This document shows positions 42,785-52,548 of a DNA stretch of 64,000 nt, piece after piece. The number at the start of each line of letters is the position of its first letter. Positions within the stretch are counted from its first letter, which is position 1. The notes beneath the pieces are model-generated. The model ran no database searches, was not told where the DNA came from, and worked only from the letters and a program-made list of their open reading frames with translations. The stretch is from the NCBI GenBank assembly GCA_001778235.1, contig MFGJ01000006.1:7121-71120 (forward strand). Reading direction: 5' to 3'. The position numbers were made by a program, and so were the translations under genes. This DNA comes from Candidatus Falkowbacteria bacterium RIFOXYC2_FULL_36_12 (GTDB lineage Bacteria > Patescibacteriota > Patescibacteriia > UBA11705).

Positions 42785-43300
42785 TTACACTCCATTATTC
42801 AATTTTTGGATTCGCTTGTTGAGGAGAGGTGAAAAATGTTCTTTATAGCGGTTTTGCAAATCAGACTTTTTCCAGTCGATCCCTGTGACCCGACCACGGC
42901 ACAAGGGCGAACCACATTTGCACTCCCATTTTGAAATATAATTTTCATCAGCTTCAAATAACGCATAATCAACAGTCAGTTCTTCGCCCGATTTAATATC
43001 TCTACTCGTGATTAAAGTATAAGCGTCTGACATCCATATATTAGGGTCACAGGAATGGTTGATGAAATATCCATCGTCATCAGCTCTATCTTCGTAGCTA
43101 TAAAGATCGTCGTCCCATTGCATAACCAACATACCATTTTTTCTCATTAATTCTGCGCCAACTGTATCAGTATAATTTCCTCCCCAGACGACGATTTTTT
43201 CGCCTCGGTTAATGTCAGAGTTAGCAAACAAGCCCTTTCCTTCAACTGGACTGGCATGAATATCAACCTTTGGACTTTTCCAATCTTGTTTAACGCTCAT
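42785..43300 (-). CDS. SET-domain protein (putative protein-lysine methyltransferase)
   Basis: GKGLFA (GxG), NHSCDPN, ELTVDY, and the post-SET Cys cluster CKCGSPLC. Start at 43300 or 43369. I do not regard the 43369 start as coding, because its N-terminal extension would be encoded by the duplicated element. Confidence 0.75.
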   Translation of the reverse strand: MSVKQDWKSPKVDIHASPVEGKGLFANSDINRGEKIVVWGGNYTDTVGAELMRKNGMLVMQWDDDLYSYEDRADDDGYFINHSCDPNIWMSDAYTLITSRDIKSGEELTVDYALFEADENYISKWECKCGSPLCRGRVTGIDWKKSDLQNRYKEHFSPLLNKRIQKLNNGV

Positions 43301-43315
43301 AGGGAATTTTTTAAT

Positions 43316-43390
43316 TTCAGCTAATGTATCGGCATATACGATGTTTGCCAAAATTCCTTTAAAAATCAATTAGTTTTGGTAATTTATTCA
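43316..43390 (-). promoter_or_regulatory. duplicated upstream element, copy 2
   Basis: Near-identical to 42199-42272. TTTGCCAAAA-N19-TTTTGGTAA. Confidence 0.6.
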
Positions 43391-43498
43391 TTGATAGGAT
43401 AACCAAGGTCGGCTAATAGTGCTTTGAAATCACCATCCTTCCATCCTTTGTAATATTCTTCGCGGACTCCTTTGAAATATTGGTATTTGCCGAGTTGT

Positions 43499-43732
43499 TT
43501 ATCCATAGTTTAATCCTTTTATTTCCGGAGTAATTTTAAGGACATAGATGATCATGATAACAATGAAAGCAACAACTATAAGGCCGAGGATTTTCAATGA
43601 TTTTTTGAAGTTGGTGAAATCTTTTTTACTGATTGAGATAATACCAAGAACTGCGGTGACAATTATCATAATGATTGCACCAAATACTGCAATCATTCCC
43701 AAAACAGTTAAAATACTGATTAATATTGACAT
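43499..43732 (-). CDS. small membrane protein
   Basis: 77 aa with 3 TM helices. Confidence 0.35.
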   Translation of the reverse strand: MSILISILTVLGMIAVFGAIIMIIVTAVLGIISISKKDFTNFKKSLKILGLIVVAFIVIMIIYVLKITPEIKGLNYG

Positions 43733-43757
43733 AGGTTTGTTATTGTATGTGCAAATT

Positions 43758-45314
43758 TTATTTTTTTAATTCTTCTCTGATTTGTTTTATTTTTTTAACA
43801 TCCTCTATTGTCCGCTGAACTTTTTCTGTTTTTCCTTTTATTTCTTTTACGATTAAATCAAAAAAATTTTGGTAACCCGCAAGGTTTTCTTGTGTTTGTA
43901 GGTCATATCCCGCGATATCTTTAATATCTTGAAAATTTTCTGCGGTTTCTAAAAATAAAGCCAAATTTTTTTTTGCTTTCGGGGTTAAATTGGTGATTAT
44001 ACTATTCACATAGGTTTTCACAATGGATACTTCAGGTGTTTCGTTCCCGCCCTGCCTCAACGCCTCTATTACTGGTTTAATATGGGAGCCGACTAATAAA
44101 ATTTGTCTGTATAGTGCGAGTTCTTTTTCTTTAGTCCATTCTTTTTTTCTTGCTTCATCACTGCCAACCCACGCTGGTCGATTTTTTTCGTCATTTAAGT
44201 AATCCTCGTTCAGTTGGTATGATCCATCAAAATCGCATATTTCAGCAGCTAAAGTAATATCTTGCTTATGGTTATTCATCGCTCCCTGATTAATTCTATT
44301 TTCCAGCAAAATAGCTGTTTGCCGTCCCAATAATTTACTGAATGTTTTTAGAAAATTTTCATTACTCATGTCTTCTCCGAACTCTTTGGCAAGAATGAGT
44401 CTAGATGCATCTAAAATTGAGGAAACCTTTTCTATCCTTTTCTCCTGATCTTTTTCTTTCATAGCTTCTTCCAATTCGCTAACTCTCCAGACATTTCTAA
44501 ATGCTCTTACATTTTGACCCAATATTGCCGACTTATAGTCTTGAACTTCGTATGAACCTACCATTTTTTTGTAGAGTTCAGGGTCGTTAATTCTTTCTTT
44601 GTTTGCTTCTATGTGCTGAACGGGGTTTTGCCCAGCAATATCTTCTGGGTCGTCATTATCAGGTATTGGCAAATTATTATCAATACAGAATTGGCGAGAA
44701 AATTTTATAGTGGTTAGAATTTTTGGCATTCTTAAACCGTATTGCTCCATCAATTTTGACTGTTTCTCTTCTAATAGTAAATCTTCATGATAAGCGGCTC
44801 CCATAAATCTAACCAATAATTTTTCATCAACTTCTGCCACAAACAGTGGCATGGCATTTTCTTTGCCCAAAGGAAATAACATTGTTCCGCCTTTGGCTTC
44901 AATTTTTTTCTGCCCTTGTTCGTTAACGCGATTTTCTCCTACACCTTTCCATTGCACAAAATTATAATCAGTGTTCCCGATTCGTGTTTGATGTTCAATA
45001 CACGCGGCTTTGCCCATGGCAACGGTCGATTTTACGGCTATAGCGGACATGTTCATATCTCCCGCCATATTTTTGCCTTGTTCTCCAACAAACATTGGTC
45101 GCAAGTAAGTTCGTGAAATCTGTGGCACTTCATTTGTTTGAGAAAAACCATTATCAGGAATCAAAAAGCCGGTGTCTTCGAAGACTAGGCCTTCTGCAGG
45201 TGACAACTCAATTTTTTCCCTTGGTTTTTTGATTTCCACTGCTTCTTGTGGTCGTTTGAGGGTAGCGACTTGTTCGTGATCGGGATTTGGTCCAAATTCG
45301 CTCATAAATATCAC
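43758..45314 (-). CDS. hypothetical protein (518 aa)
   Basis: Long ORF with no recognisable motifs. It is preceded by GC-rich element copy A. Confidence 0.5.
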   Translation of the reverse strand: MIFMSEFGPNPDHEQVATLKRPQEAVEIKKPREKIELSPAEGLVFEDTGFLIPDNGFSQTNEVPQISRTYLRPMFVGEQGKNMAGDMNMSAIAVKSTVAMGKAACIEHQTRIGNTDYNFVQWKGVGENRVNEQGQKKIEAKGGTMLFPLGKENAMPLFVAEVDEKLLVRFMGAAYHEDLLLEEKQSKLMEQYGLRMPKILTTIKFSRQFCIDNNLPIPDNDDPEDIAGQNPVQHIEANKERINDPELYKKMVGSYEVQDYKSAILGQNVRAFRNVWRVSELEEAMKEKDQEKRIEKVSSILDASRLILAKEFGEDMSNENFLKTFSKLLGRQTAILLENRINQGAMNNHKQDITLAAEICDFDGSYQLNEDYLNDEKNRPAWVGSDEARKKEWTKEKELALYRQILLVGSHIKPVIEALRQGGNETPEVSIVKTYVNSIITNLTPKAKKNLALFLETAENFQDIKDIAGYDLQTQENLAGYQNFFDLIVKEIKGKTEKVQRTIEDVKKIKQIREELKK

Positions 45315-45377
45315 AATTAAAAAATAAAATTTGCCTGAATAATTTTTGCTCCGCAGAGCAAAAGAGTTTATTTATTT

Positions 45378-45557
45378 CAGCTAATGGGCTGCGCCTAATG
45401 CGAAGTTGCGGACGGGTAGCGGAGCTACCCGACGGGCAATGTCGCATAGGCGCTGTTGTGCGATGCCATAGCGAGCACACAGCGCCGGAGGCGCAGCCCA
45501 TTGTGCAAAACAACGGGAGCGACACGCGGAGCGTGTGCGAGCGGTTTTGCACAACGT
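45378..45557. repeat. GC-rich structured element, copy A (the GC-rich region extends to about 45700)
   Basis: The GC content is far above the flanks. Long-range complementary pairs are visible: TGGGCTGCGCC/GGCGCAGCCCA, TTGTGCAAAAC/GTTTTGCACAA, CGGGTAGC/GCTACCCG, ACACGC-GGA-GCGTGT. A near-identical copy sits at 48316-48515. Confidence 0.7.
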
Positions 45558-45810
45558 TTCAGTATATGCGATGTTTTGCGTAGTGAAACGGAGCAAAATA
45601 TGGGAGAGCGAAGTGCAACGAGCGAACTGCATATACTGTGTTAGGCGAGCCGAACGAAGCGATAGCGGAGTGAGAGTGCAACGTGCCTTGCGTATTTTTG
45701 AAAAATTTATCCATATTATTCCGTTTTTGGTGGGCTTTTTATTGTATTTGATTTTTTTGTTTTGAAAAATGGAAGAGGGGCTGGGGGTGAATTCCATTTT
45801 TCAAAACTCC

Positions 45811-46707
45811 TTATTTTAATATCTTTTTAAATATTTCTTCTACTTTTAAATCAATATTTTCAACTTTTTTTGAATGAGGAATACATAGTTTTGTTAATAT
45901 CTCTTCAAACTTCATATATCCATTTTTTGATCTTAATTCTACCCAATTTACTTTTAACATTTCAGCTTGTTTTTTATTCAAATCTGATAGCTTGTCTGCT
46001 ACAAATATATTACTTTCTCTTGCAAATATTGCATCAGCACTTTCAGGGTTTCCTTTTCCCATTAACTTGACTTCACATCTATAATAATTCTCATTATTGA
46101 TGATGAAAAAATCCACCTCTCTCATACTTTCAGGAACTCTGCTTTGATCAAAATGAATGAATGGAACATCGAATAAATGACAAAGTGTAGCCATCAAAAA
46201 CTTTTCAACTCTTTTTCCGGCAGTACTCCATAAACCACCTCTTAAAGCGGCTCTTTTAACAGCGAGTGTATTTATCACAATCAAGCTTTCATTCATATTT
46301 AGATCCACACTTACGCCTTTTAGTTTAATTGTAAGTGTTAAATCAATATCTGGCTGACTATCTACTAGACTACTAATAGAGTCATACAAAACATCATAGT
46401 GCTCGTTTGATGCATCAATAACTATTTCTTTTGATGCAGAATTGTACATATTTGTAATTGTTTTTTTATTCAATCCTGAGTTAATTGCGATATCTGTTGA
46501 ACTTAAATTTGAATTTAAGAATGTTTTTTTATACCAATCAACCGTTAAATCTTTATTTGATAATTTTGCTTCGATAACTTGTTTAAAAAAGTCTATTGCA
46601 AACTGTAAAAATTCAGCATTAATAAGTGCAACTACTTCAATTCTATAGTCCTTTCCATTTATTAATCTTTTAATTATATTTTTAATTACTTGATCTGTTA
46701 ATGTCAT
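45811..46707 (-). CDS. putative Type II restriction endonuclease (PD-(D/E)xK-like)
   Basis: 4-bp overlap with the upstream methyltransferase. EVDFF...CEVKLMGKG is a candidate D...ExK motif. Confidence 0.45.
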   Translation of the reverse strand: MTLTDQVIKNIIKRLINGKDYRIEVVALINAEFLQFAIDFFKQVIEAKLSNKDLTVDWYKKTFLNSNLSSTDIAINSGLNKKTITNMYNSASKEIVIDASNEHYDVLYDSISSLVDSQPDIDLTLTIKLKGVSVDLNMNESLIVINTLAVKRAALRGGLWSTAGKRVEKFLMATLCHLFDVPFIHFDQSRVPESMREVDFFIINNENYYRCEVKLMGKGNPESADAIFARESNIFVADKLSDLNKKQAEMLKVNWVELRSKNGYMKFEEILTKLCIPHSKKVENIDLKVEEIFKKILK

Positions 46708-48116
46708 ATTGTATTACTTAAAGAAATAAAAGTATTTAAATCAACAAAATTAACTTGTTGTTTCTGTAAATCAAATAAATCGCTATTTTTTAATAGATCC
46801 TGTTTCATTCTGTCTATGTATTTATCTTCTTTTTCGGTTAAGAAGAAATTCCTTTTTAATTTTAATGCAGATTTACCAAGTGTGCCACTCCCTGCAAAAG
46901 GATCAAAGACCAAATCATTAATGAATGAATAGTATTTTATAACTCTATCACATAATTCAATTGGGAATACCGCACTATGTACTTTGTCAAAGGTAGGATC
47001 AATTTGCCATACATTTGTAGTTTCATATTTTTCTTCGACTTTACTATTTTTTACTTTTTCCCAACTATACTGCTTCATGTTCCAATCAATAAGTTTATCT
47101 GTTTTTTTTCTATATACCATTAAACATTCCGTAATCGCATTTGGTTTATATCCAAGAGGTTTTCTATGTTGAAGAAAACCACCATTTCTATTTTTTACAC
47201 TAGCTTCAGGTTTTACCCATACAATATCATCAATAAATTCCCATCCCATTTTTATAAGCAATGGATGTATGTCATAAGGAATTGGATACCTTTTACTTGA
47301 ATGAGCACGACTAATTCTTGGAACTATTACTGGAGATGTATTTAGAATAAAAAATCTTCCCTCCTTTGTTATTCTGTGGACTTCCTTAAATACTTCTTCT
47401 AGAAAATTTAAATATTCTTCATAGCTTTGATATATTGAATAGTCTCTTGCATTATAGTATGGGGGAGATGTAAAGGTTAAATGTATTGATTCGTTTGGTA
47501 CATATTTCATTGTTTCTTGAACATCTGCACCAACAACTGTGTTTTGCATATAAATCGGGGATTCATCGTGTTTCTGCGATGATTTAGAGCTATATTTACT
47601 ACCATTTAATTCTTTACTAATAACTTCTTGAATTACTTCATTTGGATGATTTATTAGCTTTTTAAGTTCATCTTTTATTTCTTTTTTACTTGAAAAAACC
47701 AACAATCCTCTAATTGCTTGCATTACAACTTTAGGATCATTGTCTTTTAAAAAATTGCAGAGTGTCGGGATTATCTCTGGCTTTCTCAAACGCCCAATAG
47801 CTGATACAGATTCTCTTCTAACATCCGTGCTTTCATCTTTACTTGCATGTTTTACAAAAATATCAAGTAATTTTATATCACCAATTTTAGCCAAGTTTTT
47901 AATAGAGAGCGAACGTATTTTTTCATTAGGATTTTCTAATAAATTCAACAAAGGATTACGGCTGTTGTCATTATCTAATTTTCCAAGTTTTTCCAAAGTA
48001 TAAATTATAGTTCCATCATTCTGATTTTCTAAAAAAGATAATAATACATTTGTATCATTTTTTAATTCATCTATTGTTTTTTTATCAATTTTTTTCCCCA
48101 AAGTTGCTCTATTCAT
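46704..48116 (-). CDS. DNA methyltransferase (beta-class N4-C/N6-A; SPPY then FxGxG) with N-terminal HEAT-like repeats
   Basis: Motif IV TSPPYYNARDY lies upstream of motif I VFDPFAGSGTLGK. Residues about 40-170 carry 4 tandem PBS-lyase/HEAT-like repeats (D..VR..A..A.G.L). Confidence 0.8.
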   Translation of the reverse strand: MNRATLGKKIDKKTIDELKNDTNVLLSFLENQNDGTIIYTLEKLGKLDNDNSRNPLLNLLENPNEKIRSLSIKNLAKIGDIKLLDIFVKHASKDESTDVRRESVSAIGRLRKPEIIPTLCNFLKDNDPKVVMQAIRGLLVFSSKKEIKDELKKLINHPNEVIQEVISKELNGSKYSSKSSQKHDESPIYMQNTVVGADVQETMKYVPNESIHLTFTSPPYYNARDYSIYQSYEEYLNFLEEVFKEVHRITKEGRFFILNTSPVIVPRISRAHSSKRYPIPYDIHPLLIKMGWEFIDDIVWVKPEASVKNRNGGFLQHRKPLGYKPNAITECLMVYRKKTDKLIDWNMKQYSWEKVKNSKVEEKYETTNVWQIDPTFDKVHSAVFPIELCDRVIKYYSFINDLVFDPFAGSGTLGKSALKLKRNFFLTEKEDKYIDRMKQDLLKNSDLFDLQKQQVNFVDLNTFISLSNTI

Positions 48117-48315
48117 AATTATTTTCCTAATTTAGTAAAATCTTTTGTATTATATAAGTATTTTTCTTCTTTAATCAATTTATAATAAATCGTTTTCGGA
48201 ACGATAGTGGAGAAAACACCTTTTACCCCCCTCTTTAAAAATTAAAAAAATCAAATTCCTTATTTCTTAAAGCCCACCAAAAACATTTCAATTAACAAAT
48301 TTTTCAAAAATATGT

Positions 48316-48515
48316 CGCCTAATGGGCTGCGCCTAATGCGAAGTTGCGGACGGGTAGCGGAGCTATCCGACAGGCAATTTCGTATAGGCGCTGTTGTGCG
48401 CTTGTCCGCCTGAGGCGGGATGCCATGCGAGCACACAGCGCCGGAGGCGCAGCCCATTGTGCAAAACAACGGGAGCGACACGCGGAGCGTGTGCGAGCGG
48501 TTTTGCACAACGTTC
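48316..48515. repeat. GC-rich structured element, copy B (the GC-rich region runs about 48300-48650)
   Basis: Direct repeat of copy A with a 19-bp hairpin insertion (CCGCCTGAGGCGG). Confidence 0.7.
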
Positions 48516-48718
48516 ACCGATATCAGATGTGTCGCCGTTGTTTCTGCGCTCAAATTTTGGGTTATCACATTACTTGCTCCTTGCTGTGAACATTCACATT
48601 ACGAAGCGGCATATGGGAGAAGAAAATTGCGACACCTTTGAAATTATTAAGAGCAATTTTCTGAACCTGATATCGGTTGTTAGCTGATGTAATTAAAATT
48701 TTCTCCCCCCCATATCAT

Positions 48719-49171
48719 TTATGGATTTACAGTGAATTTTTTGTTAGCGATATCATACATAAATATTTTTTTGTCGATACTAAATAAAACTTTCCCCTCA
48801 TTTTGATTTGAAAGTAGCTCAAATTCAGGATCTTTATTTTCTGATGAAATGGGCAATGAAGCTTTAGACTTTTTTGATACCAGTGTGCCTGTGTGTGGTG
48901 AAGCAGAATCATCCCAAACCATTTCAAGGTAAAAAAGTTCTTCATTGCCTTGACACACATGTCTAATTGTTGGCGCGTGATTCATTCCATTAAAAAATTC
49001 TGATGAAATCCACAACTCGTTGTTAGTGGGCTTTACTTCGTCGCACCAGGTAATGACCTTGGTCTGTATATTTTCTGATTGTTTATCTGTAGTCTGAGTG
49101 TTCCTTGTTGAAGTACAACCAGCGCCAACAATTACAAAAAAGATGATGGGGACAAAAAAATATTTAAGCAT
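48719..49171 (-). CDS. hypothetical lipoprotein
   Basis: Signal peptide plus lipobox (VGAGC). Confidence 0.45.
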   Translation of the reverse strand: MLKYFFVPIIFFVIVGAGCTSTRNTQTTDKQSENIQTKVITWCDEVKPTNNELWISSEFFNGMNHAPTIRHVCQGNEELFYLEMVWDDSASPHTGTLVSKKSKASLPISSENKDPEFELLSNQNEGKVLFSIDKKIFMYDIANKKFTVNP

Positions 49172-49334
49172 AGATTTGAGTAAAAAAATTTTAATTATTT
49201 TAGCTAACTCCTTTTATGCGAAGTTTGTATTCTAGGTATTTAATATCCGCTATAATAAGTGAATAAAAGGAGTATGAATTGCTTAAAATAGTAATTTATA
49301 AGTATATTATGATTATAGCAAAAATAATGGAAAA

Positions 49335-51888: not shown

Positions 51889-51917
51889 TTGACAAAGTTA
51901 AAAATCTGTGATATAAT
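51889..51917 (+). promoter_or_regulatory. consensus sigma70 promoter with an extended -10
   Basis: TTGACA, 17 bp, TGaTATAAT. Confidence 0.7.
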
Positions 51918-51923
51918 GATTAG

Positions 51924-52548
51924 TCGTGAAGATGGAAGTATCCGTGGTCGGAGCTTTCCATCAGATCGGTTGCAGTACATCTTTCCTGGATGCTGAGGCA
52001 TTCTTGACGGCGCCCAAGGAGCTTTCCTCGTGCGACTTGTACTGACCCCGTTGACCCGCTTTCGACACCAAGCGGTGAGGGGCCTTTGAAATCAGGGTGT
52101 CAGGTCTGCGAAGCTCGCGGGGACCTTAAATACCGCAGAGTTAGATTGCCACGGCAATCGAATTGCTACTAGCTCATGGACTGCCAAGAGGCGGATATGA
52201 ATCTCCTGACGCGGTAGTTAGCTCTCAGAACAAAACCTCGACACCGGTCGATCAAGTAAGAAAAACAGCGATGTACGATGATCGAGGTTGAGCTGGGAGG
52301 GTAAACTGGGCGTAGACAACAAGACGCAGTTGGCGTATGAGTCGAAGCGCCCAAAGCGCGTAAACCAGAGTTGATCTGTGTGGCTCGCAGTAGCCCACGG
52401 ACGACTCATAATGTCATGGGAAAGGAAGAAGCCATGACAAAGGCAAGGCCACCGCCGTTGTAAAATTCTCTGCGGAGATTCAACGACGACGACAGCGCCG
52501 AACCCCCGGAATCGCCATGCGATCGGGGGTTGTGTTTTTTTAAATTTA
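51924..52548 (+). ncRNA. unclassified GC-rich structured RNA of about 620 nt (candidate large ncRNA)
   Basis: A consensus promoter lies upstream. The transcript ends in an 11-bp GC stem (CCCCCG...CGGGGG) followed by TTGTGTTTTTTT. The GC content is much higher than in flanking DNA. No plus-strand ORF longer than about 20 codons is present. Confidence 0.55.

What the first reader, a model, noticed from the sequence alone, without database searches (positions are those of the whole stretch)
45330..48650. Two direct copies of a GC-rich, highly self-complementary element of about 200 bp flanking the R-M cassette
Copy A (45378-45557) and copy B (48316-48515) are near-identical apart from a 19-bp hairpin insertion in B, and each is followed by about 100-150 bp of further GC-rich sequence. 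Their GC content is far above the surrounding DNA. They contain several long-range complementary segments, for example TGGGCTGCGCC...GGCGCAGCCCA and TTGTGCAAAAC...GTTTTGCACAA. Together they bracket exactly the methyltransferase-endonuclease pair. Possible roles are a structured ncRNA or 5' leader family, terminal repeats of a mobile R-M cassette, or an attachment-site duplication. Each copy lies 5' of a minus-strand gene (the 518-aa gene and the MTase). The ORF track produces stacks of overlapping Arg/Ala/Cys-rich ORFs here, which I regard as artefacts of the GC-rich sequence.
Basis: seen in the sequence. Interest (0 to 1): 0.65.

Follow-up and report, generated by a model that had tools for sequence, protein, structure and literature searches.

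The report
Gene-free recombination-site cassettes flanking R-M cassette
The two GC-rich repeats are most likely two copies of a gene-free, hairpin-forming recombination-site cassette in an integron-like gene-cassette array of a Candidatus Falkowbacteria genome, and they led to a widespread system that appears to shuttle restriction-modification genes between uncultivated microbes.

Summary
Two about 97% identical GC-rich elements (45385-45554 and 48323-48510) bracket the methyltransferase/endonuclease pair. They are not the R-M unit's own ends, and a 5' leader is unlikely. On the gene (minus) strand the region reads as a cassette array. It starts with an attI-like site beside recR, followed by a 150-aa gene with an attC-like site. 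Then come core B, the R-M cassette, core A and a 518-aa gene cassette.

The R-M cassette has a 136-nt left end and a 278-nt right end. In over 100 metagenomic loci these ends are 88-99% identical. They enclose 21 different cargos, 18 of them R-M systems. Junctions fall at G|TT in RYYYAAC...GTTRRRY sites, as in integrons.

The "cores" belong to a family with at least 17 distinct sequence variants. These share one architecture with strong covariation (97% paired versus 79% in shuffles). They read as ORF-less, attC-only cassettes. The strand complementary to the genes folds better in 18 of 19.

In related loci the adjacent 270-aa recombinase is IntI/Xer-like but lacks the IntI-specific domain. 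No recombinase lies in this window.

Verdict: a new variant of a known kind (integron-like). All of this is inferred from sequence and none of it has been tested experimentally.

The parts
49197..49221 (-). attI-like site TCGCATAAAAGGAG-TT|AGCTAAAAT directly after recR. It marks the start of the cassette array, with the inferred crossover between 49208 and 49207. No recombinase gene is beside it in this window.
   Evidence: The same motif, (C)AACTTCGCATAAAAG(G/A)AGTT|AGGCGAC, lies between the divergent 270-aa recombinase gene and the first cassette in L017, L023, L042 and L011. It was read in the window. The strict regex finds 2 hits in the window against 0.05 in shuffles. tblastn finds no recombinase in the window.
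48719..49171 (-). 150-aa ORF of unknown function, the cargo of cassette 1.
   Evidence: ORF list. No Pfam or NCBIfam hit. Called as a gene in public assemblies.
L' TGATATCGGT, GAAC, G|TT.
   Evidence: It is one of 52 distinct L-box variants of one site family (145 sites against 4 in shuffled loci).
48323..48510 (-). Core B, an ORF-less attC-only cassette (188 nt), given here in cassette orientation. The plus strand is the better-folding strand. It carries a 19-nt hairpin insertion in the hp2 loop relative to core A.
48187..48322 (-). LE, the conserved left end of the R-M cassette. It starts TT|AGGCGAC, which complements the R'' box of RE, and contains an inverted-repeat arm (48205-48312) and a small hairpin.
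   Evidence: 90-97% identical to about 20 other loci, where it lies upstream of different R-M cargos. The inverted repeat with 45693-45790 is shown.
46704..48116 (-). HEAT-repeat + N6/N4 DNA methyltransferase (470 aa), cassette cargo.
   Evidence: Pfam N6_N4_Mtase 9.7e-40 and HEAT_2 9e-18.
45811..46707 (-). CfrBI-family restriction endonuclease (298 aa), cassette cargo.
   Evidence: Pfam RE_CfrBI 7e-24.
45553..45830 (-). RE, the conserved right end of the R-M cassette. It has a 16-bp hairpin (45759-45807), an inverted-repeat arm (45693-45790) and an attC-like site (45556-45646). The attC-like site reads R'' GCCTAAC, A, L'' CAGTATATGC ... L' GCATATACTG, AAAC, G|TT, with the crossover between 45555 and 45554.
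   Evidence: 91-99% identical over about 260-280 nt in dozens of loci where the full RE is held. Its 26-mer occurs in 29 GTDB species representatives. Its 3' 22-mer occurs in more than 120 metagenome stretches.
45385..45554 (-). Core A, the second copy of the ORF-less attC-only cassette (170 nt).
43325..45384 (-). Next cassette. It starts TT|AGCTGAAAT and carries the 518-aa ORF (43758-45314) plus two small ORFs. It ends in a degenerate attC-like 3' end, TCGTATATGCCGATACA|TT AGCTGAAAT (43314-43341), in front of the SET-domain gene.
   Evidence: The start motif AGCTGAAAT follows RE in many other loci. The attC 3' end was found by the strict regex.

Best explanation
The window holds an integron-like gene-cassette array without its recombinase (a 'CALIN'-type array) in Candidatus Falkowbacteria. 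Cassettes are joined at G|TT within sites built as RYYYAAC-A-L''(10 nt)-variable loop-L'(10 nt)-RAAC-G|TTRRRY. These sites fold as hairpins on the strand complementary to the genes.

The R-M pair is one such cassette (48322-45555), wrapped in a conserved 136-nt left end and 278-nt right end. In the circular form these would pair into a hairpin of about 290 nt with the attC-like site at its tip.

The two GC-rich repeats are two copies of a separate cassette with no gene at all. Each starts with TT + RRRY + CAAAAY, the right half of an R' box. That segment pairs in cis with its complement + AAY, an R''-type box, to form hairpin H1. A long stem P1 (AAYG... / ...CRTT) then encloses two hairpins. 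One hairpin carries GTTRRRY...RYYYAAC and the other carries the L-box motif TATRCG...CGCATA.

If the element is circularised at G|TT, the RTT that ends it joins its own leading segment to make an R' box, with the matching R'' box just inside, and P1/hp2/hp3 between them. That gives the order of boxes of an attC site, although here a 10-bp stem separates the R and L boxes.

Inferred mechanism: a Xer/IntI-like tyrosine recombinase encoded elsewhere cuts and rejoins the folded strand at G|TT. It would excise and insert cassettes, including these gene-free ones, which thereby multiply within an array. The two 170-188-nt direct repeats would also let the R-M cassette be lost or regained by ordinary homologous recombination.

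Shown from sequence: the anatomy, the junction positions, the covariation, the strand bias, and the recurrence of the ends with different cargos. Inferred: that the recombinase acts on these sites, that the folded single strand is the substrate, and that cores are mobile.
For: 1. Junction logic. RE conservation stops sharply at ...AACGTT|, and about 100 different sequences follow it, typically RRRY(G/C)AAAT plus a short UTR and an ORF. L013 versus L015 and L011 versus L012 are identical up to (C/G)(A/G)TT| after a core and then differ by a whole extra cassette.

2. Site family. There are 145 sites with 52 distinct, fully complementary L-box pairs and R'' = RYYYAAC, against 4 hits in shuffled loci. 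The RE site folds into a 10-bp R box, a 3-nt bulge and an 11-bp L box.

3. Cores. Nineteen sequences share one architecture. All lie in the same orientation, always after GTT of an attC-like or attI-like site. H1 has 208 Watson-Crick, 13 G-T and 7 other pairs out of 228. P1 has 227 Watson-Crick out of 228, with 2-3 pair types per position. The AAY base covaries with the terminal RTT. RNAalifold on an unfitted alignment recovers P1, H1 and the hp3 base, and 15 of 26 pairs are compensatory. Pairing is 97.0% against 79.4% in shuffles, and 75 double-change cells compare with 22.5 (0 of 500 shuffles reach this). Slid controls give 32-49%.

4. Strand bias. With DNA parameters the strand complementary to the genes is more stable in 18 of 19 cores (p=1.5e-4) and in 47 of 51 attC-like sites (p=2e-8).

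5. Copies within one genome are near-identical and sit at cassette junctions. L011 has one beside attI and one after RE. L007 has three.

6. Recombinase. Homologous 270-aa tyrosine recombinases (44-55% identical to each other) lie divergently next to the attI-like motif or first cassette in L011, L007, L017, L023 and L042. The best solved relative is the Vibrio integron integrase 2A3V at 6.8e-45. NCBIfam 'tyrosine recombinase/integron integrase' scores 221.9 against a cut-off of 220.

7. The window has the same attI-like motif at 49197-49221.

8. Cargo. 18 of 21 LE...RE cargos are R-M systems, in line with reports that R-M genes are common integron cargo (PMC9668308). ORF-less cassettes are known in integrons (PMC6557892).
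Against: No recombinase gene lies in the 64-kb window, so activity here cannot be assumed.

The recombinases seen in related loci lack the roughly 46-aa IntI-specific domain. Query residues 193-199 span IntI4 residues 199-246. In canonical integrons that domain is required for attC recombination (PMC9668308, citing Messier & Roy 2001).

The L boxes are perfect duplexes without the canonical extrahelical bases.

In the cores, a 10-bp stem (P1) separates the R-type and L-type boxes. This geometry differs from the ordinary sites, and alternative pairings exist.

I could not run IntegronFinder or HattCI.

No empty site or circular junction was observed. The only sister-strain contig ends inside the repeat.

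The better-folding plus strand would fit a plus-strand RNA equally well.

Cores were partly ascertained by a search that required P1 and H1 pairing. Their position after RE and the alifold result on an unfitted alignment are independent of that requirement.
Confidence: 0.7

Rival explanations
1. The cores are genes for a small structured RNA transcribed from the plus strand, antisense to the cassettes, for example a regulator of the R-M genes. Alternatively they are a structured 3' UTR or insulator element of the upstream cassette on the minus strand.
For: Folding is very stable with strong covariation. The plus strand folds better in 18 of 19 family members. A-versus-B differences are G-U on the plus strand. 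GC-rich islands in an AT-rich genome are typical of structured RNAs.
Against: No Rfam family matches, even at E<=10. No promoter or terminator signal exceeds shuffles around either copy. On the plus strand, the sequence upstream of a core is the start of whatever cassette follows, and it differs in every locus, so there is no conserved promoter position. The ends coincide to the base with recombination junctions (GTT|...|TT). The interior carries the same R and L box motifs as the recombination sites. Ordinary attC-like sites show the same strand bias.
Confidence: 0.1
2. The two copies are a one-off long target-site duplication made when the R-M unit inserted. This is 'insertion with long target duplication', described for R-M genes in Helicobacter (own knowledge: Nobusato 2000, Furuta 2010). 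On this reading the copies have no function of their own.
For: Two direct repeats bracket the R-M unit in the window. The same pattern is seen in L011, and in L007 around two cassettes.
Against: Architecturally equivalent cores with unrelated sequences occur singly after RE (L013, L065, L129, L135). They also occur between attI and the first cassette (L034, L011) and in tandem (L108). They are absent beside the same type of R-M cassette in L017, L020, L025, L042 and L043. Conservation of structure with compensatory changes across at least 17 distinct sequence variants is not expected of random target DNA.
Confidence: 0.07
3. The array is not integron-like. It is a pile-up of elements integrated by the host's housekeeping Xer recombinase at a dif-like double-stranded site, like IMEX elements or the pdif modules of Acinetobacter plasmids. 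On this reading the hairpins are incidental.
For: The recombinase is Xer-sized (270 aa) and lacks the IntI domain. It is almost as close to archaeal XerA (3e-42) as to IntI. It belongs to a very large family in Patescibacteria. By my reading, the attI-like site can be read as an imperfect palindrome, ACTTCGCATAA-N6-TTAGGCGACAT.
Against: Cassette-boundary sites keep distal inverted repeats (R''/R', L''/L') 60-200 nt apart, with 52 compensatory L-box variants. They also show a consistent strand bias in folding. A purely double-stranded 28-31-bp core site would need neither. L' sequences differ between cassettes, so they cannot be a fixed sequence-specific arm. Junctions follow G|TTRRRY.
Confidence: 0.1

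Closest known systems
Integron gene cassettes and attC sites, including cassette arrays without an integrase (CALIN)
   Same: The sites are RYYYAAC...GTTRRRY with inner L''/L' repeats, and structure is conserved while sequence is not. Junctions fall at G|TT. Cassettes are mostly one to three genes in one orientation. In related loci a divergent tyrosine recombinase and an attI-like site lie at the head of the array. The bottom strand folds better. R-M genes are the cargo.
   Different: The recombinase lacks the IntI-specific additional (I2) domain. The L boxes lack extrahelical bases, and asymmetry comes from a 4-nt versus 1-nt spacer. R-M cassettes carry long conserved shells (136 and 278 nt, with about 90-nt inverted repeats) that are 88-99% identical across very different MAGs. 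The hosts are CPR and other uncultivated lineages.
ORF-less integron gene cassettes (e.g. oral-metagenome/Treponema cassettes, PMC6557892)
   Same: These are cassette-sized units bounded by recombination junctions with no credible ORF.
   Different: Here the whole unit is essentially one elaborate folded site (H1 + P1 + two hairpins, 150-210 nt) that forms a covarying family. Near-identical copies occur within a genome. No promoter activity is indicated or tested.
Species-specific attC repeats of sedentary chromosomal integrons (Vibrio cholerae repeats, VCR; own knowledge)
   Same: A highly similar repeat follows many different cassettes, and the repeats break short-read assemblies.
   Different: RE is about twice as long as a VCR. 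It is shared at 91-99% identity among MAGs assigned to different phyla rather than within one species, and it is paired with a conserved left end.
Xer-dependent integrative elements (IMEX) and pdif modules (own knowledge)
   Same: A Xer-like recombinase is involved. Modules of accessory or defence genes are bounded by recombination sites, and inverted-repeat sequences flank the module.
   Different: The sites here are long folded palindromes with compensatory variation, not 28-bp double-stranded dif-like sites.
Elements that target attC sites (group IIC-attC introns, PMC3001079; IS1111-attC insertion sequences, own knowledge)
   Same: These are inserts found exactly within or next to the R' end of attC sites.
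   Different: Those elements are 1.3-2 kb and encode a reverse transcriptase or transposase. The cores are 150-210 nt, encode nothing, and themselves carry R and L box motifs. No group II intron model matched.

Membership tests
Integron (attC site) | Outer inverted boxes R'' RYYYAAC and R' GTTRRRY | tested here: met
   RE has GCCTAAC ... GTT|AGGC. Across 52 site variants R'' is RYYYAAC-like and R' is G|TT + RRRY. In cores the AAY/RTT pair covaries.
Integron (attC site) | Inner L''/L' repeats, with structure conserved rather than sequence and a variable terminal structure | tested here: met
   52 distinct fully complementary 10-nt L-box pairs, with loops giving site lengths of 81-204 nt. There are 145 sites against 4 in shuffled loci.
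Integron (attC site) | Extrahelical bases in the L box and an unpaired central spacer on the folded bottom strand | tested here: inconclusive
   The fold shows a 3-4-nt bulge on one side against 1 nt on the other between the R and L boxes, but the L box is a perfect 11-bp duplex without extrahelical bases.
Integron (attC site) | The bottom strand is the better-folding (recombined) strand | tested here: met
   With DNA-parameter MFE, the bottom strand is more stable in 47 of 51 attC-like sites and in 18 of 19 cores. This shows folding preference only. Strand use in recombination was not tested.
Integron (attC site) | Recognition by the IntegronFinder/HattCI attC models | not testable with these tools
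   These models are not available here, and Rfam has no attC family.
Integron (platform) | Integron integrase with the IntI-specific additional domain around patch III | tested here: not met
   The L011 recombinase aligns to VchIntIA (2A3V) at residues 3-193 = 4-199 and 199-270 = 246-317, so about 46 aa of IntI are absent. It scores TIGR02249 206-224 bits, below the cut-off of 265. All five relatives are 270 aa.
Integron (platform) | intI divergent from, and adjacent to, attI and the cassette array | tested here: inconclusive
   Met in related loci L011, L017, L042, L023 and L007. In the window only the attI-like motif is present (49197-49221) and no recombinase, so the window matches an integrase-less array.
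Integron (cassette) | Cassette boundaries at G|TT, with presence/absence of whole cassettes between related arrays | tested here: met
   L013 versus L015 and L011 versus L012 diverge exactly after ..RTT|. About 100 different continuations follow RE ...AACGTT|.
ORF-less gene cassette | A unit bounded by cassette junctions with no credible coding sequence | tested here: met
   The cores are 150-210 nt. The ORFs across them are Arg/Ala/Cys-rich read-throughs without homologues other than via RE DNA.
Known structured RNA family (Rfam) | Match to a curated covariance model | tested here: not met
   No hit at gathering thresholds in the window. Only chance-level hits at E<=10 in 45200-48800, none over the cores.
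Xer/dif-type site (IMEX, pdif module) | A 28-31-bp double-stranded core with two fixed arms and a 6-8-bp spacer, sufficient on its own | tested here: inconclusive
   The attI-like site can be read that way (my reading). Cassette sites, however, have variable L' arms and conserved distal partners. Sufficiency cannot be tested in silico.
R-M insertion with long target duplication | Direct repeats arise only as a pair at the insertion, and the empty site has one copy | tested here: not met
   Cores occur singly, beside attI, in tandem, or not at all next to LE...RE units. No empty site could be recovered for the window.

The most novel reading that the evidence does not exclude
This is a distinct lineage of integron-like systems, common in CPR/Patescibacteria and neighbouring uncultivated groups. 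Its recombinase is Xer-like and lacks the I2/additional domain, yet it works on folded attC-like hairpins. That would make it a living intermediate, or an independent solution, between Xer/dif recombination and integrons. The system circulates R-M systems packaged in a standard 136-nt + 278-nt shell across phyla, and possibly across domains. It also hosts self-propagating gene-free cassettes, the GC-rich cores found here.
Probability: 0.4. Interest if true: 0.85.

Novelty: new variant of a known kind. Interest (0 to 1): 0.68.

Why it matters
If correct, this gives a concrete mechanism for how restriction-modification systems move among Candidate Phyla Radiation bacteria and other uncultivated lineages. 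At least 18 different R-M systems were found in the same "shell".

It also bears on a question about integron origins. Integron integrases are thought to have gained single-strand recombination by acquiring the I2 helix (PMC7790495). Here, cassette arrays with folded sites sit next to recombinases that lack it.

There are practical consequences too. The repeats break MAG assemblies, since many hits lie at contig ends. They also generate dozens of spurious "hypothetical proteins" in public databases. The conserved ends are ready-made probes for recovering R-M cassettes from metagenomes.

Tried and rejected
- **Rfam.** The search at gathering threshold and at E<=10 found nothing relevant. ARAGORN found no tRNA or tmRNA, so integration into an RNA gene was dropped.
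- **Exact core 22-mer.** It gave 0 hits in genome contigs and viral contigs, so this core sequence is confined to this species.
- **Look-up of the 518-aa protein.** It is not on record with that start.
- **Retron, DGR, IscB/TnpB guide RNA and bridge RNA.** I considered these and dropped them. No reverse transcriptase or nuclease gene lies nearby, and the differences between the two copies are not adenine-specific.
- **PF05635 hit on one database "protein" (P0045).** This is a read-through into a neighbouring gene and not informative.
- **Group II intron inserted after a terminator.** No intron model matched, and the element is too small.
- **First hand-made attC regex.** It was too noisy: 35 hits against 17-36 in shuffles. 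It was replaced by a stricter junction-anchored scan.
- **TIR transposon reading of LE/RE.** Rejected because the right inverted repeat lies about 135 nt inside the right end.
- **Search for RE in PLSDB plasmids and INPHARED phages.** No match.
- **Empty-site test with a sister strain.** It failed because the contig ends inside the repeat.
- **Promoter/terminator scan.** Nothing above shuffles.

Full report

Yes. The window is about 33% GC, and two islands of 58-60% GC lie at 45.3-45.7 kb and 48.3-48.6 kb. The repeat finder reports two direct-repeat blocks, 45373-45462/48311-48400 and 45471-45579/48427-48535. The gapped alignment shows that the shared core differs by four substitutions, a 1-nt indel and a 19-nt insertion in copy B that is itself a small hairpin. 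A shared 23-mer occurs twice against none in 100 shuffles. BLAST between the copies gives E=8e-71, and there is no third copy in the window. Each copy folds far better than shuffled sequence, with z from -5.8 to -8.9. The copies bracket a HEAT-repeat N6/N4 methyltransferase (46704-48116) and a CfrBI-family endonuclease (45811-46707), both on the minus strand. By exact protein look-up the organism is Candidatus Falkowbacteria, a Candidate Phyla Radiation bacterium from the Rifle aquifer.

**2. First surprise: the widely conserved sequence is next to the repeats, not in them.**

Rfam finds nothing, and the exact core sequence is absent from the genome and viral collections. Gene callers often translate GC-rich islands, so I searched the protein database with the spurious 138-aa ORF that runs across copy A. 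It found 58 "proteins". Their DNA does not match the core. It matches the adjacent 278 nt (45553-45830) at 91-99% identity where the full stretch is present in the locus. A second conserved block of 136 nt (48187-48322) is matched at 90-97%.

On the gene strand these two blocks are a left end (LE) and a right end (RE) that enclose the R-M genes. The same LE and RE enclose quite different cargos elsewhere. Of 21 distinct LE...RE cargos, 18 are R-M systems. They include:
- C5 methylase with an NgoFVII-like enzyme;
- Tsp45I;
- a MutH/Sau3AI-like enzyme;
- IceA/NlaIII-like;
- BpuJI;
- MvaI/BcnI;
- CfrBI;
- several fused type IIG/L enzymes;
- type III Mod+Res;
- type I-like M+S+Abi_C.

The remaining three cargos are a Schlafen-like helicase, a SLAC1 channel pair and an HxlR regulator.

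A 26-mer of RE occurs in 29 GTDB species representatives. Their labels include Roizman-, Magasanik-, Uhr-, Komeili-, Moranii-, Gracili- and Peribacteria, Elusimicrobiota, Spirochaetia, Bacteroidetes, "Gammaproteobacteria", Woesearchaeota and Thermoplasmatales. All loci examined are AT-rich. Many hits lie at contig ends, as expected of a repeat that breaks assemblies. Short cassette-only contigs may be mis-binned, so I treat the cross-phylum spread as an observation to be verified.

**3. The junctions are integron-type junctions.**

RE conservation ends to the base at ...AACGTT|. About a hundred different sequences follow, usually RRRY(G/C)AAAT, a short leader and an ORF. Two pairs of loci that are identical up to a junction then differ by a whole extra cassette: L013 versus L015, and L011 versus L012.

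The last 100 nt of RE read GCCTAAC-A-CAGTATATGC...GCATATACTG-AAAC-G|TT. When an LE follows, the sequence continues AGGCGAC, so that TCGCCTAAC pairs with GTTAGGCGA. As single-stranded DNA this folds into a 10-bp R box, a 3-nt bulge and an 11-bp L box. A scan anchored on the junction motif finds 145 such sites, with 52 different but always complementary L-box pairs, against 4 in shuffled loci. Their consensus is RYYYAAC-A-L''(10)-loop-L'(10)-RAAC-G|TTRRRY and their lengths are 81-204 nt.

The one after copy B (48509-48685) is another member of this family (AGCTAAC-A-ACCGATATCA...TGATATCGGT-GAAC-G|TT) and belongs to the upstream 150-aa gene. That explains why the two "tails" share a layout but not a sequence. 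LE and RE also carry inverted repeats of about 90 nt. At a direct RE|LE joint (L025) the whole 290 nt folds into one long hairpin with the attC-like site at its tip (z=-6.6).

**4. What the two GC-rich repeats are.**

I collected 19 sequences, representing at least 17 distinct variants. All have the same orientation and all follow the GTT of an attC-like or attI-like site.

The architecture on the gene strand is GTT - H1 hairpin - AAY - P1 stem enclosing two hairpins - RTT:
- The 5' arm of H1 is RRRY+CAAAAY, the motif with which ordinary cassettes begin. Its 3' arm is the complement followed by AAY, which makes an RYYYAAC-type box.
- hp2 carries GTTRRRY...CATCG-RYYYAAC.
- hp3 carries TATRCG...AACTTCGCATA, the same L-box motif as RE.

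The covariation evidence is as follows:
- H1 has 208 Watson-Crick, 13 G-T and 7 other pairs out of 228.
- P1 has 227 Watson-Crick pairs out of 228, with two or three pair types at most positions.
- The third base of AAY covaries with the terminal RTT.
- RNAalifold on a MAFFT alignment that was not fitted to any structure recovers P1, H1 and the base of hp3, and 15 of 26 pairs have compensatory changes.
- The pair count is 97.0% against 79.4% in shuffles, and 75 double-change cells compare with 22.5 (0 of 500 shuffles reach either value). Structures slid by 1-3 columns give 32-49%.

If such an element is cut at G|TT on both sides and circularised, its terminal RTT joins its own leading TT-RRRY-CAAAAY segment to form an R' box. 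The matching R'' box lies just inside, and P1, hp2 and hp3 lie between them. That is the box order of an attC site with no gene. The simplest reading is therefore an ORF-less, attC-only cassette. ORF-less cassettes are known in integrons (PMC6557892).

Copies within one genome are near-identical and sit at cassette junctions:
- two in the window;
- two in L011, one of them between the attI-like site and the first cassette;
- three in L007, one of them truncated;
- two different ones in tandem in L108.

Other loci with similar R-M cassettes have one core or none. This rules out an obligatory target duplication.

**5. Which strand?**

With DNA energy parameters, the strand complementary to the genes (the window's plus strand) is the more stable in 18 of 19 cores (mean 6.2 kcal/mol, p=1.5e-4). 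The same holds in 47 of 51 ordinary attC-like sites (p=2e-8). In the window, the A/B differences are G-U pairs on the plus strand and mismatches on the minus strand. In integrons the bottom strand is the one that folds and recombines (PMC2727003), so the bias fits. On its own, however, it cannot exclude a plus-strand RNA.

Several points argue against an RNA gene:
- no Rfam match;
- no promoter or terminator signal above shuffles;
- on the plus strand, the sequence upstream of a core is the start of whichever cassette follows, which differs in every locus;
- the ends of the element coincide with recombination junctions.

**6. The recombinase.**

No tyrosine recombinase is encoded in the 64-kb window. 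In five related loci (L011, L007, L017, L023, L042) a 270-aa tyrosine recombinase is divergently transcribed from the head of the array. These five are 44-55% identical to one another. The recombinase gene is separated from the first cassette by a conserved motif, (C)AACTTCGCATAAAAG(G/A)AGTT|AGGCGAC. The window has this motif at 49197-49221, directly after recR and in front of the 150-aa gene. The window array therefore reads, on the minus strand:
- attI-like site, crossover 49208|49207;
- cassette 1, the 150-aa gene with its attC-like site, ending 48511|48510;
- core B, 48510-48323;
- R-M cassette, 48322-45555;
- core A, 45554-45385;
- a cassette starting AGCTGAAAT, with the 518-aa gene and two small ORFs, ending in a degenerate site at 43314-43341;
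- the SET-domain gene.

The recombinase's best solved relative is the Vibrio cholerae integron integrase (2A3V, 6.8e-45). The alignment, however, skips IntI residues 200-245, the IntI-specific additional domain. Archaeal XerA is almost as close (3e-42). NCBIfam places the recombinase just above the cut-off of "tyrosine recombinase/integron integrase" (221.9 against 220) and below the cut-off of the integron-integrase model (206-224 against 265). The family is very large and common in Patescibacteria. The nearest relative of the L011 enzyme is from Margulisbacteria.

**7. Comparison with what is known.**

The system works like an integron. It has G|TTRRRY junctions, RYYYAAC/GTTRRRY and L''/L' boxes, structure-not-sequence conservation, bottom-strand bias, an attI-like site with a divergent recombinase in related loci, and R-M cargo. 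R-M genes are common in cassettes, and archaeal and bacterial attCs with 95-100% identity have been reported (PMC9668308).

It fails one defining test of membership. The recombinase lacks the additional domain that all bacterial and archaeal IntIs have (PMC9668308) and that is thought to have enabled single-strand recombination (PMC7790495). Consistent with that, the L boxes lack extrahelical bases, which are the canonical determinants of strand selection in attC sites (PMC2727003).

Further differences are the long conserved LE/RE shells with their large inverted repeats, and the covarying family of gene-free cores. I found no paper describing this combination. The library is incomplete, though, and metagenomic attC surveys may already have counted such sites. 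I therefore file it as a new variant of a known kind and call it integron-like.

A Xer/dif (IMEX or pdif-module) reading remains possible for the recombinase and the attI-like site. It does not explain the distal compensatory repeats.

**8. Limits.**

Everything is inferred from sequence. No circular junction, empty site or activity was observed. The only sister-strain contig ends inside the repeat. The collection of cores partly required pairing, although position and the unfitted alifold result are independent of that requirement. In the cores, P1 separates the R-type and L-type boxes by 10 bp, and alternative pairings exist, so how a recombinase would bind them is open. What the cores do for the host, if anything, is unknown. 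My best guess is that they are minimal selfish cassettes. As 170-188-nt direct repeats they would also allow RecA-dependent loss and regain of the R-M cassette.

Noticed in passing
window 51889-52545 (+): A non-coding block of about 620 nt at 52% GC lies between folD and dnaB, on the strand opposite to both. It has a perfect TTGACA-17-TATAAT promoter (51889-51917) and a classic intrinsic terminator (about 52497-52540). There is no Rfam hit at E<=10 and no tRNA/tmRNA, and the MFE z-score is about -3.7. It is a candidate large unclassified ncRNA.
   Followed up: partly
window 45693-45790 vs 48205-48312: Imperfect inverted repeats of about 90-100 nt (78% column identity) flank the R-M genes. They contain the blocks TATTTTTGAAAAATTT and GTTTTTGGTGGGCTTT. 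They are part of the conserved LE/RE shell and pair around the attC-like site at RE|LE joints. Their function is unknown.
   Followed up: partly
window 45759-45830 (-) and all RE copies: RE begins 14 nt after the cargo stop codon with AAGGAG-N8-ATG. This opens an ORF (MEFTPSPSSIFQNKKIKYNNKKPTKNG...) that runs through the hairpin and the attC-like site into whatever follows. Public databases hold at least 58 clusters of such 'hypothetical proteins'. They look spurious, but the good ribosome-binding site is unexplained.
   Followed up: partly
LE hairpin (about 48195-48220), RE (about 45655-45690), H1 and hp2 loops of cores: A short motif of the form CCGCT(A/T)TCGCT(C/T)CG recurs in the loop regions of LE, RE and many cores from different loci. 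It could be a protein-binding motif. Not analysed.
   Followed up: no
window 43314-43341 and 42785-43369 (-): A degenerate attC-like 3' end followed by AGCTGAAAT lies just inside the annotated TTG start of the SET-domain gene. This suggests the SET gene is also a cassette with a later start codon. The downstream end of the array was not determined.
   Followed up: partly
window 43758-45314 (-) and 48719-49171 (-): The 518-aa and 150-aa cassette-borne proteins have no Pfam or NCBIfam match. Their function is unknown. As array cargo they are candidates for defence or accessory functions.
   Followed up: no
L017-L045, L046-L165: RE hits very often lie within about 150 nt of a contig end, and the sister-strain contig L166 stops inside core H1. 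These repeats fragment MAG assemblies, and short cassette contigs may be binned into the wrong taxa.
   Followed up: partly
L087 (2479 onward) vs L129/L138: L087 carries only the H1 module of a core, followed directly by AATGTGAAAT. L129 and L138 have the near-identical H1 plus the full P1 module. This suggests the two modules can be separated by recombination at the internal AAY.
   Followed up: no
L110:1668-3809: One LE...RE shell carries two SLAC1-family anion-channel genes instead of an R-M system, so the shell is not strictly limited to defence genes.
   Followed up: no
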